This document shows, one piece after another, positions 1,972 through 22,831 of a stretch of 64,000 nucleotides of DNA. A program made the position numbers and the translations under genes. The notes beneath the pieces are model-generated. The model did not search any database, was not told the DNA's origin, and saw only the letters and a program-made list of their open reading frames with translations. Source of the DNA: Octopus sinensis (lineage: Eukaryota). Location: the NCBI RefSeq assembly GCF_006345805.1, contig NC_043006.1:33852001-33916000 (forward strand). Direction: 5' to 3'. How positions within the stretch are numbered: the first letter of the stretch is position 1; each line of letters begins with the position of its first letter.

Positions 1972-2545
1972 CATCATCATCAACATCATCATTGTTTAAC
2001 GTCCATGGGTTGGATGGTTTGACTAGGATGCCAGGAGGCTGCACCAGGCTCCAGTCTGATCTGACAGCGTTTCTACTGCTGGATGCCCTTCCTAATGCCA
2101 ACCACTCTGAGAGTATAGTGGGTGTTTTTTACGTGCCACCGGCACAGGGGCCAGAGGTGGCTGGCAACAACCACGATCAGTTGGTGTTTTTCAGGTGCCA
2201 CTGGCATGGAAGCCAGTCAAGGCGGCACTGGCATTGGATGGTGTTTTTTACATGCCACCAGCACGGGGATCACAACAACAATTTCCATTTGATTTTGATT
2301 CTGATGTACTTGACTCAATAAGTCTCCTCAAGCACAGCATGTCGCCCTACGATCCAAGGTACTTTTGAGTGGGCTGGTTATGTGACACTGGTGTAGGTTA
2401 CAGCTGTGAACTCACTTTATTTGCCAGGTCTTCTCAGTCACAGCATACCTCCAGAGGTCTTGGTTTTTTGTCATTGCCTCTGTGAAGTGTAACGTTTGAA
2501 GGTCATGTCTTCCTGTGCCTCCCTCTACCCAGATTTCTTCCACTG
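1972..2545 (-). mobile_element. RTE LINE 3' end, 5'-truncated
   Basis: ORF end DLQTLHFTEAMTKNQDLWRYAVTEKTWQIK* (stop at 2412) is homologous to the copy at 1-460; then 3' UTR and (GAT)n tail. Confidence 0.8.
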
Positions 2546-2616
2546 TTTGGGAGTGGCACACACACACACATATATAAATACATATGTATATATAAACACA
2601 CACACACACATACATA

Positions 2617-2985
2617 TTTCGTTTTGGGATTTGGTTTGCAAGATTCTTTATGTGAGTTTGTGTGTTGAAGCATAATCTGTTGTGTCTGGGGAGAGTCATT
2701 TTCTTTTAGTGACTCATAATCTAACACACTCACATACATACATACATGCATACATACATACATGTGTATGCACACACACACACACACACACTGACCCACA
2801 CACATGCATACAAACAAACAAAAAGAACGCAGCTCGGATAACAGACAGAGTCAACAACTATTGAAGAGGCTTCAAGATACAACGAAAATTTTATAAAAAT
2901 AAATAAGTAAATGGGTGGAAATTTTACTGGTGAGTGTATTAAATAATAAGGCACAAAAAGGGAATGACTCTCCCCAGACACAGCA
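2617..2985. mobile_element. Degenerate inverted-repeat element, possibly PLE-derived
   Basis: 2681-2732 (TGTGTCTGGGGAGAGTCATT...ACACTCAC) recurs inverted at ~2929-2981, with a microsatellite between the arms. Confidence 0.45.
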
Positions 2986-4003
2986 CCGATATACATACAT
3001 ACATACATAATACATACACACACATATATATATATGATGGGCTTCTTTCAGTTTCTGTCTACCAAATCCACTCACAAGGGTTAGTCAGCCTAGAGCTATA
3101 GTAGAAGACATCTATCTATTTATTTATCTGTGTGTGTGTGTGTATGGATGTGGCTTCCCAAGTTTAATGTAAAATTTCCCTTTGGCTTTTTGTTCCTGTC
3201 TGTGACAAAACCACAGACTACAACATACACATTTTATTATCACGAAAACACAAACTTCACAACTTGCAAAGTAAATACGGCAATGTCACTCAGCACCATC
3301 CTGCCTCATAAAGGTCACTGCTAGCTCTCACTGCGCATGCAACCGTGTGCTGCCATCTGTTGGCATGCTCCAGAACTAGTCCAAGAACCTTTTGATACTC
3401 CCTTGTATTCTACTTTGATGTCAGAAATGAAAGTTAAGAGCTTGCAGCAAGAAAAAAAAAACATAAATGAATAAAATAAATCACTGTCTACCTGGCTGAC
3501 AAACTTTAATCCTAATTCACAGACGAATAGTTAGAAATTGGAAATATACCAAGACAAAGTCATTTGGTTGACATATCCTGTTCATACTTCACAGAGAAAT
3601 GGTAGCAAAAGGAAGATACCAATTCTTAACTCTTTGATATTTTCTTTGGCAATATTTCACTGAAAATATTTGTTAAGTAAAAGACATTTGTACATAATAT
3701 GTCATTCTGCAGGCTTCTTATCATTTCTTAAACAATTCCAGCAAGAGAGGTCTGATGTGGTCGTCTGACACACTAGAAGTAGTAACCAAATCACCTGGTA
3801 TTACACTCTAATACCTTGAAATGAGAAGGATACATTTTATAATGTAGTTTAAGATATATGGTGCCTAAAGTGAAGGATATGTAATAAAAAAAAAGCTTAG
3901 AAGTTGTCTTGGGGTTTAACACTAAGAACATTGAACCAAGGAAACTTCTTGTGGTTACTCAATCTGGTAGAAAGAGCAGTCAAGCCTCTCTCAACTCATG
4001 CCT

Positions 4004-12227: not shown

Positions 12228-13220
12228 CGGTAAAGTTCTCTTCACCCACTGTTGTGCCTATGTATTGTACCAAGAAGGAAATGAAAGACACAAATATGTT
12301 TATTGCATATTTTATGAAATGTTCCGATACTTTTTATCTGCTGCTTCACAGACAAATAGAATAACAGGTTGACAGACATAAAGGAACCAAAATTATTACA
12401 CAAAGCAAAATTCAGAACATTCTGTTTCATCATTGGTTTTACAATGTTATTCCATTCTGGCAGGAATTGAATGGAATCAGAATAGAGTATCTTCATTCTT
12501 TGCATTGTCTTTCATGAGAGGGTGGATGGGTAGGTCTATGGATACAGGAATAGCTTCTTTTTATCAAAAACCAGTGCAGCAAAACATGCCATATGTGCAT
12601 ATTACGACAAGAGAAGTATAGAAGTTATTGGCGCAGACTTGGAGTCTACTTTACCCCATATCAGCTCAAACCAAACTACTGCGTTGAGTGAAAAGTTTTG
12701 CAATATTTTGGTAACTTATTTGATTTATTCATCAATCTACAACAAAAGCAGTCAAGCATTCATAGTAGAGGCCATCATGTTGCACTGTCTGAAGCAACCT
12801 TTCTTCCAGGTCTTTGATCCCACATGAAGACCAGTTATGGTCCTTCAAGGTGAAGAACTCCTTCACTGAAGCTTTTTCTTGGTTGATGAAGCATCACGAG
12901 TGCAGGACGTGAGACATGGATCAGAAGTAGTAAAAATCTGAAGGAGATATTTTTCTGTAATCCAGTGGTTAAGCAAGGGCCACATTGTGGAACCTGTCAC
13001 GAAGCATGGGTGTTTTGAACACAAGGTGATGATCAGCATCTGGTGCAATTACGAGGGGTTAATTCATGGCGGGTTTGTTTCAGACAGTTGACCCATTGAT
13101 GCCAACTTGTATGCTGAACCACTGGAGAGGATGTATGCCATTGTGCAGCAAAAATACCCTGCATTGTTTAACTGAAACCAAGATCATCCACAGCAAGATA
13201 ACACAAAACCTCATTCCATT

Positions 13221-13706
13221 TGTAGTAAAGATTGTTTGCCAACATCACATGGCAGTCCTGGTTTAGGACGAATGTTGCTGTAATTTATCCCCAGCATACA
13301 TCGTCTCCAGCTGGCTATACAACACGATCTGCGTCCTTATATTTTCGAACAAGGGAATCTAGCACCCCCACTCAGCTCAAAACAATGTGTATCGTGATTT
13401 CTGGGTTATTTCCCCTTCATCAGCACAGAATAATTGTTCAGCTAGAGGTGGCGCTACCAAATTCCCGTTTGAAATATATAGTTTTCAAAGTGACAACTAG
13501 TCACTGATTTATAAATTAGAAAATTATTAAAAAAATGTAAGGAAACAGATCGTGTCATATAGCCAGCTGTAGACGATGTCTCCTGGGCTAAATTACAGCA
13601 ACATTAGTCCTAAACCAGGACTGCCATGTTATGTTGGCAAACAATCTTTACTACAAAGTACTGTTGCTGAATATCTCATGTTGTGAGATTTAAAAATAGT
13701 AATTTT
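13221..13706 (-). mobile_element. Fold-back insertion with 11-bp TSD and internal hammerhead motif
   Basis: TSD CTCATTCCATT at 13210-13220 and 13707-13717; ~110-bp inverted repeats 13221-13330 and 13547-13655; unpaired 51-bp tail 13656-13706. Confidence 0.85.
13386..13427 (-). ncRNA. Minimal type I hammerhead ribozyme motif
   Basis: Minus strand: UGUG-CUGAUGA-AGGGG-AAAUAA-CCCA-GAAA-UC-AC-GA-UA-CACA. Stems I, II and III can form; predicted cleavage after AUA; one mismatch at the base of stem II. Confidence 0.7.
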
Positions 13707-14027
13707 CTCATTCCATTCATCAACCCAGAATAAGCTCCAAGAATTTGAGGAAATTGAACTGATGCAACACCCAGCATCTAATCCAGACCTAGCTCCCTTG
13801 TGCATGTGCATGTGGATGTGTGTGTGCGTTTGCGAATGTGTTTATTTCCACAAATCTTCACACTGGCACTATTTGTGCAATGGTGAAGATGTTTATATTG
13901 CATAAAAATCTGGAAAAAGTTTGGCAGCTGAATGATTGAGAATATAAAGATGTTGAATGAAATAATTTACTTAACAAATAAGGGTTGGCATTGAGGGTGT
14001 GAGGGCATCCAACTGTACAATATTAAC

Positions 14028-14181
14028 TGAAGAAGAAGAAGAAGAAGAAGAAGAAGAAGAAGAAGAAGAAAGAGAAGAAGAAGAAGAAGAAAGAAGAAGA
14101 AGAAGAAGAAAGAAGAAGAAAGAAGAAGAGAAGAAGAAGAAGAAGAAGAGAAGAAGAGAGAGAAGAAGAAGAGAAGAAAAA

Positions 14182-14210
<29 letters not shown>
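14028..14210. repeat. (GAA)n polypurine tract
   Basis: Read directly; similar tracts at ~19260-19510 and ~63325-63535. Confidence 0.95.
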
Positions 14211-14212
<2 letters not shown>

Positions 14213-14324
14213 GTCATCTAATCTCTTCAAGCATAGAAATGTAGAAATGATGATGATGATGATGATGATGGTGTTAGTGAAGGTGATGATAAGGATGATG
14301 ATGATGATAGTGATGATAATGCCA

Positions 14325-14368
<44 letters not shown>

Positions 14369-14644
14369 AGTGGTGATTGATGATGATTGATGCTGATGAT
14401 TATGCAAGATTGATGGCCAGACTTTAATCTCTGGAGAACTAATAAAATGTGGGTGTAAGTTTATTTATATATTTACTTTTTTGGCGATGGTGTTTGTGGT
14501 GGTTGTGGTGGTGGTTATGGTAGAGTATGGGAGGAGGGGCTGTTTTTGTATGTTTTCCACATTCTAAATTGTTTGATCCTTAACAACAACAACAACAGCA
14601 ACAACAACCACAAACACCATAGCAACATCAACAACAACACTCAA

Positions 14645-22496: not shown

Positions 22497-22831
22497 CAGT
22501 TCTATATTTAAGAAATGAGGAATTATGTACATTATTTTACATTTGAGGGATATTTGTCCTCATCCTGTTTGTTGTTAACACAATGTTTCGGCTGATATAC
22601 CCTCCAGCCTTCATCAGGTGTCTTGGGGAAATTTTGAAACTGGATTTTCATTCCTAAGCTATTGAAAAATACATCGAAAAATACCTTAGGAATGAGAACC
22701 CAGGTTCGAAATTTCCCCAGGACACCTGATGAAGGCTGGAGGGTATATCAGCCGAAACGTTGTGTTAACAACAAACAAAAGATGAGGACAAATATCGTCA
22801 AATGTAAATAATGTTAATAATATAAATAATG
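22497..22831 (+). mobile_element. Fold-back Penelope-like insertion with two opposed hammerhead motifs and 11-bp TSD
   Basis: TSD ATCATGTGATG at 22486-22496 and 22832-22842; ~130-bp inverted arms ~22522-22658 and ~22685-22820; ~25-bp one-sided tail at the left. Confidence 0.88.
22721..22766 (+). ncRNA. Minimal type I hammerhead ribozyme motif, canonical core
   Basis: GACAC-CUGAUGA-A-GGCUG-GAGGGUAUAU-CAGCC-GAAA-C-GUU-GUGUU, with palindromic AACGUU stem III; predicted cleavage after 22761. Opposite-strand copy at 22577-22622 has a CpG-type change. Confidence 0.8.

What the first reader, a model, noticed from the sequence alone, without database searches (positions are those of the whole stretch)
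13221..13706. Nested inverted repeats with a hammerhead at the apex: rod-like, retrozyme-like RNA
Seen: outer arms 13221-13330/13547-13655 and a second, imperfect inner pair (~13338-13377/13440-13480) enclose a minus-strand type I hammerhead motif (13386-13427). Removing the insert and one TSD copy restores the mariner DNTKPH...TQNKL spacing to within one base, confirming the boundaries. Known: retrozymes are non-coding hammerhead retroelements that yield highly paired circular RNAs. Inference: the transcript folds as a long rod with a self-cleaving tip.
Basis: partly seen in the sequence, partly recalled or inferred. Interest (0 to 1): 0.75.

Follow-up and report, generated by a model that had tools for sequence, protein, structure and literature searches.

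The report
Head-to-head hammerhead retroelement insertion
The 486-base insert is an old, decayed copy of a 353-base non-coding repeat family that carries a hammerhead-ribozyme motif; its long inverted arms are two truncated copies joined head to head, the landing style of Penelope-like retroelements, which likely mobilised it, so it is an ordinary case of a known kind.

Summary
The window has 127-nt inverted arms, an inner imperfect stem, a minus-strand hammerhead-like motif and a 9-11-bp target duplication inside a mariner relic.

The insert belongs to a family with about 2,000-3,000 first-look candidates, built on a 353-nt unit that also forms short tandem arrays. That matches animal non-LTR retrozymes.

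The outer arms are not a selected RNA rod. Across 83 other loci, 70 are composites of two oppositely oriented, 5'-truncated copies. The inner junctions vary. A 49-nt tail sits at exactly one end in 62 composites and at both ends in none. Target duplications are 7-15 bp. This is the published insertion architecture of Penelope-like elements (PLEs). Each window arm is 95.3% identical to the family majority and 90.6% to the other arm, so they decayed independently.

The hammerhead fold is supported by five compensatory pairs against a sister family that is about 70% identical. However, Rfam does not recognise it, and it has A·G (or A·A) where G10.1-C11.1 is expected. Cleavage is untested.

This copy carries a 4-nt deletion in helix I and has only one ribozyme, so it cannot release a circle. 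The insertion is shared by three organism labels. No autonomous partner was found. The scan has met this same pattern in other genomes.

The parts
13210..13220 (.). Left copy of the target-site duplication CTCATTCCATT (9-11 bp, because the last bases could belong to the element)
   Evidence: Read. Comparable flanking repeats of 8 nt or more occur at 30 of 56 family loci, against 6.3% of permuted pairs.
13219..13345 (-). Copy 1, 3' terminal segment A' (127 nt) on the minus strand; this is the left outer arm
   Evidence: It is 95.3% identical to the family majority.
13346..13531 (-). Copy 1, core segment C' (186 nt) on the minus strand. It is 5'-truncated within the last bases of segment S' and holds the hammerhead domain.
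13380..13439 (-). Hammerhead-like motif, type I topology. CUGAUGA is at 13423-13417, the helix II hairpin at 13415-13403, GAAA at 13401-13398 and helix III at 13398-13391. The predicted scissile bond lies between 13390 (A17) and 13389. Compared with the family, this copy has a 4-nt deletion in the 3' strand of helix I, an extra G in helix II, CGCG changed to CACG, and 11.1 changed from G to A.
   Evidence: Contigs from the family restore TATC behind 13385 and drop one base at 13412.
13346..13480 (-). Inner imperfect stem, a long extension of helix I that encloses the hammerhead.
   Evidence: Folds (121 nt, -46.4 kcal/mol, z -4.7). Pair counts on 64 copies are.
13532..13657 (+). Copy 2, segment A' on the plus strand, 5'-truncated at the start of A'; this is the right outer arm
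13658..13706 (+). Tail: segment S' (49 nt). It is the start of the next unit in tandem arrays and is present at this end only.
   Evidence: Among the 70 composites at the 83 other loci, the tail is at exactly one end in 62 and at both ends in none; the window's own insert also has it at one end only.
13707..13717 (.). Right copy of the target-site duplication CTCATTCCATT
12942..13220 (+). Mariner-type transposase relic with stop codons, interrupted by the insert; it resumes at 13718-13803

Best explanation
The insert at 13221-13706 consists of two 5'-truncated copies of a 353-nt non-coding repeat joined head to head inside a 9-11-bp target duplication, and this architecture was likely made in a single integration event by the reverse transcriptase-endonuclease of a Penelope-like element (PLE).

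**Shown**
- In the ribozyme sense the unit reads S' (49 nt), C' (about 185 nt, holding the hammerhead domain) and A' (127 nt).
- The unit occurs as short tandem arrays and, more often, as composites of two opposed copies. Their 5' ends meet at variable points and their outer ends are the unit's 3' end.
- One outer end, never both, is extended by S'.
- Whole composites, including a 1.4-kb one with more than three units, sit inside one target duplication.

**Inferred**
- The RNA template has the polarity of the hammerhead, because truncation always removes the C' side.
- The family is non-autonomous and borrows PLE machinery.
- In tandem transcripts the hammerheads would cut out 353-nt monomers. 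They probably pair through the palindromic helix III (AU-CGCG-AU). A host ligase could then circularise the monomers, as shown for retrozymes of other animals.

**This copy**
It is an old, dead-on-arrival stump. It has one decayed ribozyme, no second cleavage site, and arms that have drifted apart neutrally.
For: **Family size and forms**
- First-look candidates number 3,150 (whole insert), 2,058 (C') and 1,239 (A').
- The exact 34-nt ribozyme pattern has 167 hits, against 0 for the reversed control.
- Tandem arrays have a 352-353-nt period.

**Architecture, 83 loci other than the window**
- 70 hold both orientations, and 69 of these have the 5' ends inside.
- The tail is at exactly one end in 62, at both ends in 0, at neither end in 2, and unclear in 6.
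- In the sample chosen by A' alone (28 loci): 25 both-orientation, 24 head to head, 23 one-tailed.
- Junction positions range over unit coordinates 4-327.
- The 24 copies with the window's arrangement differ at the junction base by base.

**Target duplications**
- A shared exact word of 8 nt or more flanks 30 of 56 loci, against 6.3% of permuted pairs.
- In the A' sample the figure is 16 of 28, against 4%.
- The 1,393-bp composite L031 is flanked by CTATGAATTCA.

**Match to published PLE architecture**
Craig et al. 2021 (PMC8557442, passages) describe partial tandems, an adjacent inverted 5'-truncated copy, and a 30-40-bp tail often at only one end.

**Arms**
Each arm is 121/127 identical to the family majority; the two arms are 90.6% identical to each other.

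**Hammerhead**
- The core nucleotides (C3-A9, G12-A14, A15.1, U16.1, H17) are present, and 30 of 56 copies pass a structural descriptor.
- The 13 core columns are 98.1% conserved, against 94.9% for 261 other non-CpG columns. Only 2 of 10,000 random column sets reach that value.
- Five family-level compensatory pairs separate this family from a sister family that is about 70% identical. The covariation score is 0.318 against 0.211 in shuffles (0 of 500 reach it).
- Helix sizes fit the 'canonical metazoan type I' description: helix I 6 bp, helix II 4 bp, helix III 1-2 bp with a palindromic loop (PMC4209133).

**Non-autonomous status**
None of the 40 longest ORFs (of 191 of 110 aa or more) in 84 family loci hits a reverse transcriptase or GIY-YIG domain. 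The genome has 5,029 first-look GIY-YIG candidates, with open frames up to 883 aa.

**Age**
Contigs from organism labels A, D and E bridge the insert's junctions.
Against: - No autonomous PLE with matching ends was found. The unit has no significant similarity to 50 PLE loci. The one hit, in L154, was a sister-family copy 3 kb from the endonuclease domain and in the opposite orientation.
- Rfam reports no hammerhead family at the gathering score on the window. It also reports none at E<=10 on 13150-13750, nor on the best-preserved copy L022. The same Rfam model does find a different hammerhead family in this genome.
- The base of helix II is A·G (A·A after CpG decay) instead of the highly conserved G10.1-C11.1 pair (PMC4209133).
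- Within the family there is no covariation beyond shuffles.
- A subfamily of 10 of 56 copies has a mismatch in helix II.
- The sister family has C at core position 4 in 19 of 27 copies. Spread did not obviously need an active ribozyme.
- The first 29 loci were selected with the whole insert as query, which favours the window's arrangement.
- Part of the clustering of junctions at the A'/C' border comes from how I defined the segments.
Confidence: 0.75

Rival explanations
1. The whole 440-490-nt palindrome is the functional unit of a retrozyme. Its transcript folds into a long rod with a self-cleaving hammerhead at the tip, and the rod is the selected RNA form.
For: Both strands fold as long hairpins with z about -24. 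About 29 other loci share the same A-C-A' arrangement. The hammerhead domain lies in the middle.
Against: - Both strands fold equally well, as any DNA palindrome would.
- The junction differs among the 24 copies with this arrangement. In samples not chosen by the arrangement, it lies anywhere in the unit.
- The arms decayed additively, with no maintenance of pairing.
- Tandem units lack the inverted arm and fold branched, 62-67% paired.
- One ribozyme gives one cut, not a unit-length RNA.
Confidence: 0.07
2. The sequence is not a separate non-autonomous family. It is simply the terminal repeat (pLTR) end of an ordinary autonomous Penelope-like element, seen here as truncated stumps.
For: Earlier notes of this scan reached this verdict for similar inserts in other genomes. 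The A'/S' segments have 10-20 times the summed contig depth of the core, as expected for heavy 5' truncation of something longer. PLE endonuclease domains are abundant in the genome.
Against: - Arrays of two to more than three complete 353-nt units join A' directly to S'-C'.
- In the annotated loci of the C'-selected sample and in the 28 loci of the A'-selected sample, wherever C' and A' of one copy are both present they adjoin, with no other sequence between them.
- None of the 40 longest flanking ORFs in 84 loci hits a reverse transcriptase or GIY-YIG domain.
- The unit shows no similarity to 50 PLE loci.
- Only 50 of about 5,000 candidate PLE loci were examined, so a rare parent is not excluded.
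Confidence: 0.12
3. A miniature inverted-repeat or foldback DNA transposon with 127-nt terminal inverted repeats, moved by a cut-and-paste transposase.
For: Long terminal inverted repeats and a flanking direct repeat. It sits in a genome that holds mariner relics.
Against: - Arm length and junction vary between copies.
- The ends are asymmetric, with a tail on one side only: 62 of 70 composites, and never on both.
- Flanking repeats vary from about 7 to 15 nt.
- Head-to-tail arrays and one-orientation 5'-truncated copies carrying target duplications also occur.
Confidence: 0.03
4. A SINE-like element copied by a LINE, with the inverted part made by twin priming.
For: Variable-length target duplications and 5' truncation.
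Against: - Both halves carry the same 3' terminal segment. In twin priming (recalled from the literature) the two halves are adjacent, non-overlapping parts of one RNA.
- There is no A-rich or microsatellite 3' tail; the ends are precise.
- A one-sided 49-nt tail and tandem units are PLE hallmarks.
Confidence: 0.03

Closest known systems
Animal non-LTR retrozymes (Cervera & de la Pena 2020, PMC7229834; passages seen)
   Same: - A type I hammerhead sits in a non-coding unit of a few hundred bases (here 353 nt).
- Short tandem arrays, GC below 45% (here 38%), and target duplications longer than 4 bp.
- PLEs coexist in the same genome.
- The fold of the monomer is moderately self-paired.
   Different: - Expression, cleavage and circles are not shown here.
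- Arrays are short (2 to about 3.4 units in those examined), and most copies are head-to-head stumps.
- The base of helix II is A·G rather than G-C, and Rfam does not score the motif.
- The passages I read of that paper never use the word 'inverted' (0 occurrences).
Insertion architecture of endonuclease-bearing Penelope-like elements (Craig et al. 2021, PMC8557442; passages seen)
   Same: - Partial tandems and strong 5' truncation.
- An inverted 5'-truncated copy adjoining the 5' end, so that inverted repeats frame the unit.
- A short extension (tail) at only one end.
- Insertions into microsatellites were also seen (L011, L020, L092).
   Different: - No reverse transcriptase or GIY-YIG reading frame is present in the family.
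- The tail is 49-52 nt rather than 30-40.
- No sequence link to a coding PLE was found.
Canonical metazoan type I hammerheads and PLE minimal hammerheads (Cervera & de la Pena 2014, PMC4209133; first quarter of the text and passages seen)
   Same: - Helix I of 6 bp followed by an internal loop.
- Helix II of 4 positions with a 6-nt loop.
- Helix III of 2 bp capped by a palindromic tetraloop, which suggests action as a dimer.
- An A directly after A9, as in PLE hammerheads.
   Different: That paper calls G10.1-C11.1 highly conserved. Here an extra purine also precedes G12, giving A·G or A·A at that level.
Plant LTR retrozymes (Cervera et al. 2016, PMC4918200; search listing and start of abstract only)
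   Same: A non-autonomous retroelement with hammerheads, proposed to spread through circular RNA.
   Different: According to the introductions of the 2020 paper and the 2026 preprint, plant retrozymes have type III ribozymes in direct LTRs, PBS/PPT signals and 4-bp duplications. None of these features is present here.
[quoted passage not shown]
   Same: It reaches the same conclusion: animal retrozymes derive from and depend on PLEs. Its basis is co-occurrence and sequence similarity to pLTRs in frogs.
   Different: Here the link is the insertion architecture, not sequence similarity. In the text I searched, the preprint has 0 'tail' and 0 'head-to-head', and its only 'inverted' is in a reference title.

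Membership tests
Hammerhead ribozyme, type I | Conserved core nucleotides C3 U4 G5 A6 N7 G8 A9, G12 A13 A14, A15.1-U16.1, and H17 before the cut | tested here: met
   All are present in the window copy and are 95-100% conserved across 56 copies.
Hammerhead ribozyme, type I | Three helices in type I order (helix I open, helices II and III closed) | tested here: met
   In the family, 92.6% of 2,476 cells are paired, against 28-53% in slid controls. In the window copy only 3 of the 6 proximal helix I pairs remain, and helix II has an extra G.
Hammerhead ribozyme, type I | G10.1-C11.1 pair closing helix II | tested here: not met
   A at 10.1 in 20 of 20 and 25 of 27 copies of the two families. At 11.1, G in 13 of 20 and A in 23 of 27.
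Hammerhead ribozyme, type I | Score at or above the gathering score of an Rfam hammerhead model | tested here: not met
   No hit at the gathering score on the window. No hammerhead hit at E<=10 on 13150-13750, L022:480-720 or L022:585-655. In the scan of 14 loci, no hammerhead appeared among the 150 rows shown; 58 lower-scoring rows were not seen.
Hammerhead ribozyme, type I | Compensatory changes that keep the helices | tested here: met
   Five pairs differ on both sides between this family (20 copies) and the sister family (27 copies), and none is broken at family level. This is only two lineages. Within the family there is no covariation.
Hammerhead ribozyme, type I | Self-cleavage at the predicted bond | not testable with these tools
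   All sequencing runs on offer were contigs, so no read ends were available.
Animal non-LTR retrozyme | Type I hammerhead within tandem repeats of about 150-450 bp, low GC, non-coding | tested here: met
   Units of 352-353 nt in arrays. GC is 38-39%. No RT/EN reading frames.
Animal non-LTR retrozyme | Abundant linear and circular unit-length RNA | not testable with these tools
   No listed holder is on record as RNA. The 'RNA?' contigs show the same arm-to-core depth ratio as the DNA-like runs.
Penelope-like element insertion (architecture) | Partial tandems, an adjacent inverted 5'-truncated copy, a tail at one end, and a target duplication | tested here: met
   The window copy shows the inverted copy, the one-sided tail and the duplication.
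Penelope-like element (autonomous) | Reading frame with reverse transcriptase and GIY-YIG endonuclease | tested here: not met
   None among the 40 longest ORFs of 84 family loci.
Non-autonomous derivative of a named PLE | Sequence similarity of its ends to the pLTR of a coding PLE in the same genome | tested here: inconclusive
   No similarity to 50 PLE loci out of 5,029 first-look candidates.
MITE / foldback DNA transposon | Constant terminal inverted repeats and a target duplication of fixed length | tested here: not met
   Variable junctions and arm lengths, asymmetric ends, and flanking repeats of about 7-15 nt.

The most novel reading that the evidence does not exclude
This family may be the clearest architectural evidence so far that animal hammerhead retrozymes are integrated by the Penelope-like machinery itself. 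Each landing would build a mirror-image partner and a one-sided tail anew. Ribozyme catalysis would be dispensable for spread, because a sister family multiplied to hundreds of copies with C in place of the essential U4.
Probability: 0.3. Interest if true: 0.5.

Novelty: new member of a known kind. Interest (0 to 1): 0.3.

Why it matters
The result explains a striking 440-nt palindrome as a by-product of how one class of retroelement lands. It is not a new RNA, and similar 'hairpin with a hammerhead' calls elsewhere should be read the same way.

It also adds a concrete case to the argument that animal retrozymes ride on Penelope-like elements. Previous evidence was co-occurrence and, in frogs, sequence similarity. 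Here the evidence is the insertion signature: head-to-head copies, a one-sided tail, and one target duplication around whole arrays.

Two details deserve a bench test:
- The hammerhead has a purine-purine pair where G10.1-C11.1 is expected.
- A sister family apparently spread with a mutated catalytic core.

Tried and rejected
**Rfam**
- Gathering-score scan of the window and E<=10 scans: no hammerhead hit.
- The 14-locus scan was swamped by microsatellite-like miRNA matches.

**Rfam RF00163 over the whole genome**
- It gave 65 matches among 74 scored candidates, out of 265,813 first-look candidates.
- The 12 loci I fetched are a different family. This says nothing about how the model would score our family genome-wide.

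**Expression**
- No RNA holder was listed.
- Four 'RNA?' contig runs hold the family, but their arm-to-core depth ratio equals that of DNA-like runs. I draw nothing on expression from them.
- No raw reads were available, so no read ends or back-junctions could be examined.

**Empty site**
- No joint skipping 13221-13717 appears among the 15 of 206 joints listed. The rest were not shown.

**Autonomous partner**
- 30 + 20 PLE loci were compared with the unit. Nothing matched except a sister-family copy lying near one of them.

**Copy number**
- First-look counts of 3,150, 2,058 and 1,239 are rough and are not copy numbers. Summed contig depths are not copy numbers either.

**Within-array versus between-locus identity**
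- Within-array identity was 0.89-0.98, against 0.87 between loci. This is too few pairs (7) to tell single-event arrays from later duplication.

**Literature searches**
- Two literature searches on a guess at the animal group gave nothing relevant on retrozymes.

**Earlier notes of this scan**
- None exist for this genome.

Full report
**What is in the window**

The sequence and the repeat finder confirm the outer inverted repeat. Its two stretches are 13219-13291/13585-13657 (96% complementary) and 13290-13345/13532-13587 (86%). An 11-nt direct repeat, CTCATTCCATT, flanks the insert at 13210-13220 and 13707-13717.

The flanks are a mariner-type transposase relic. The left flank reads ...QQDNTKPHSI and matches PF01359 at E 1.1e-4, below the curated cut-off. 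The right flank reads TQNKLQEFEEIELMQHPASNPDLAP.

On the minus strand the motif reads CUGAUGA-AGGGGAAAUAACCCA-GAAA-UCACGAU-A, followed by CACA. CUGAUGA lies at 13423-13417. Both strands fold as a long hairpin (z -24.3 and -25.0), which any DNA palindrome would do.

**The family**

The window lies in a 2.72-Gb animal genome. The insert has 3,150 first-look candidates there. Two kinds of match appeared: about 30 loci with the whole arrangement at 82-89% identity, and short head-to-tail arrays matching only the first 311 bases at 91-93%.

Reading one array showed a 353-nt unit. In the ribozyme sense I call its parts S' (49 nt), C' (about 185 nt, holding the hammerhead domain) and A' (127 nt). The 49 bases between the window's right arm and the right target duplication (13658-13706) are S'.

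The window insert is therefore two pieces:
- a minus-strand piece C'-A' (13531 down to 13219);
- a plus-strand piece A'-S' (13532-13706).

The two pieces meet at their 5' ends.

**Architecture across copies**

I annotated S', C' and A' in loci from three searches: the whole insert as query, C' alone and A' alone. I added eight arrays fetched by coordinate and removed 13 duplicate loci. The table gives the counts.

| Sample | Loci | Both orientations | 5' ends inside | Tail at exactly one end |
|---|---|---|---|---|
| All loci other than the window | 83 | 70 | 69 | 62 |
| C'-selected | 18 | 11 | 11 | 10 |
| A'-selected | 28 | 25 | 24 | 23 |

Across the 70 composites, the tail is at both ends in 0, at neither end in 2, and unclear in 6. 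The C'- and A'-selected samples do not favour the window's arrangement.

The 5' truncation points range over unit coordinates 4-327. Some of the clustering at the A'/C' border comes from my segment definition and from the E-value limit for short pieces.

Among the 24 copies that share the window's arrangement, the junction differs base by base. A GAAAAT microhomology between the two sites may favour that junction.

Flanking direct repeats of 8 nt or more occur at 30 of 56 loci, against 6.3% of 1,100 permuted flank pairs. In the A' sample the figure is 16 of 28, against 4%. They also surround whole composites; for example, CTATGAATTCA flanks the 1,393-bp L031. Each composite is therefore one insertion event.

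**Comparison with Penelope-like elements**

Craig et al. 2021 (passages) describe PLE insertions in these terms:
- highly 5'-truncated;
- often partial tandems;
- with a 30-40-bp tail often present at only one end.

All four features are met here. The genome holds many GIY-YIG endonuclease matches (5,029 first-look candidates, open frames up to 883 aa).

The family itself is non-coding. None of the 40 longest ORFs (of 191 of 110 aa or more) in 84 family loci hits a reverse transcriptase or GIY-YIG domain. I found no coding PLE whose ends resemble the unit among 50 PLE loci, so the partner is unknown.

**The arms are not a maintained RNA helix**

Each window arm is 121/127 identical to the family majority, and the two arms are 90.6% identical to each other. 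This is exactly additive decay from two initially identical copies.

Natural tandem monomers folded as circles give -97 to -103 kcal/mol, z -4.3 to -6.5, with 62-67% of bases paired in a branched shape. The antisense strand gives -81 to -96 kcal/mol.

It is a long extension of helix I around the ribozyme (the L022 domain gives -51.4 kcal/mol, z -6.4).

**Is the hammerhead real?**

The family version has these parts:
- Helix I: UCUGUG/CACAGA (6 bp), then an internal loop, then AACAAU/AUUGUU.
- Core: CUGAUGA.
- Helix II: GGG/CCC with loop AAAUAA, flanked by A and G.
- Core: GAAA.
- Helix III: AU-CGCG-AU.
- A17 before the predicted cut.

The helix sizes fit the 'canonical metazoan type I' description, including the palindromic loop that suggests action as a dimer (PMC4209133).

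Evidence in favour:
- The 13 core columns are 98.1% conserved, against 94.9% for 261 other non-CpG columns. Only 2 of 10,000 random sets reach that value.
- 30 of 56 copies pass a structural descriptor.
- 167 genomic sites match an exact 34-nt pattern, against 0 for its reversal. By my own count of the printed list, 32 of the 100 sites listed keep all three CpGs.
- Contigs from four to five organism labels give the same CCCGG...CGCG version.

Within the family there is no covariation beyond shuffles, as expected for a recent burst.

A sister family turned up by chance near a PLE locus. It is about 70% identical over the whole unit and has 352 first-look candidates. It supplies five family-level compensatory pairs:

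| Pair | This family | Sister family |
|---|---|---|
| 2.1-1.1 | G-C | A-U |
| 2.6-1.6 | U-A | C-G |
| 15.2-16.2 | U-A | C-G |
| Distal helix I (two pairs) | A-U | G-C |

No pair is broken at family level. The covariation score is 0.318 against 0.211 in shuffles (0 of 500 reach it) and 0.075-0.172 in slid controls. This rests on only two lineages.

Evidence against:
- Rfam does not report a hammerhead for the window or for the best copy at E<=10. Its type I model does find another family in this genome at 34-48 bits.
- The position of the highly conserved G10.1-C11.1 pair is A·G or A·A in both families.
- Ten of 56 copies form a subfamily with a helix II mismatch.
- The sister family has C at core position 4 in 19 of 27 copies, and U in 8, apparently by CpG decay. 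That family seems to have spread with a crippled core.

Cleavage is untested.

**This copy**

Compared with the family, this copy lacks four bases of the 3' strand of helix I. It also has an extra G in helix II, CACG in place of CGCG, and A at 11.1. Contigs from the family restore the four bases and drop the extra one.

It holds a single ribozyme, so even an active one would cut the transcript once and release no unit.

Contigs bridge the left junction in organism labels A and E, and the right junction in A and D. The insertion therefore predates the split of these labelled organisms, if the labels are distinct species. No empty site was seen among the joints listed.

**What is known and what is new**

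Animal non-LTR retrozymes, and the proposal that PLEs mobilise them, are in print (PMC7229834; the 2026 preprint). The PLE insertion architecture is in print (PMC8557442). Earlier notes of this scan describe the same head-to-head hammerhead stumps in other genomes.

What this case adds is a family with the retrozyme form whose insertions carry the full PLE signature. I did not find that signature described for retrozymes in the passages I searched: 0 'inverted' in the 2020 paper; 0 'tail', 0 'head-to-head' and only a reference-title 'inverted' in the preprint. I did not read those papers in full, nor their supplements.

**Verdict**

This is a new member of a known kind, of low to moderate interest.

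Noticed in passing
window 22566-22777 (repeat extends to about 22538-22808): A second head-to-head palindrome: 98-nt arms, 93% complementary, 16 nt apart. Each arm carries a textbook PLE-type minimal hammerhead: GACAC-CUGAUGA-A-GGCUG...CAGCC-GAAACGUU-GUGUU. It has the extra A after A9, a G10.1-C11.1 pair and the palindrome ACGU. It shows no similarity to the 353-nt unit.
   Followed up: partly
L160-L193 (e.g. G000:C2:30737614-30737774): A sister family of the 353-nt unit, about 70% identical, with 352 first-look candidates and copies 81-92% alike. Its hammerhead helices are kept by compensatory changes, but core position 4 is C in 19 of 27 copies.
   Followed up: yes
L099-L110; L104:1337-2219: A third, unrelated hammerhead family that Rfam RF00163 recognises at 33-48 bits (CUGAAGAG...GAAACAUGUGU). 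At one locus it forms a 431-nt tandem repeat of two copies, 98% alike.
   Followed up: partly
L047:977 (+) and 2319 (-): Beside a GIY-YIG match lies an inverted pair of minimal hammerheads with the palindrome ACGAUCGU, about 1.3 kb apart.
   Followed up: no
L011, L020, L092 flanks: Family copies are inserted into (GAT)n or (AG)n microsatellites. This is in line with the microsatellite insertion bias reported for PLEs (abstract of PMC8557442).
   Followed up: no
junction of the window-type copies (window 13525-13540 and the 24 loci): A GAAAAT microhomology links the S'/C' border and the C'/A' border. It may explain why this particular head-to-head junction recurs.
   Followed up: partly
window 14030-14400: Long (GAA)n and (ATG)n microsatellite tracts begin about 300 bp downstream of the insert.
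   Followed up: no
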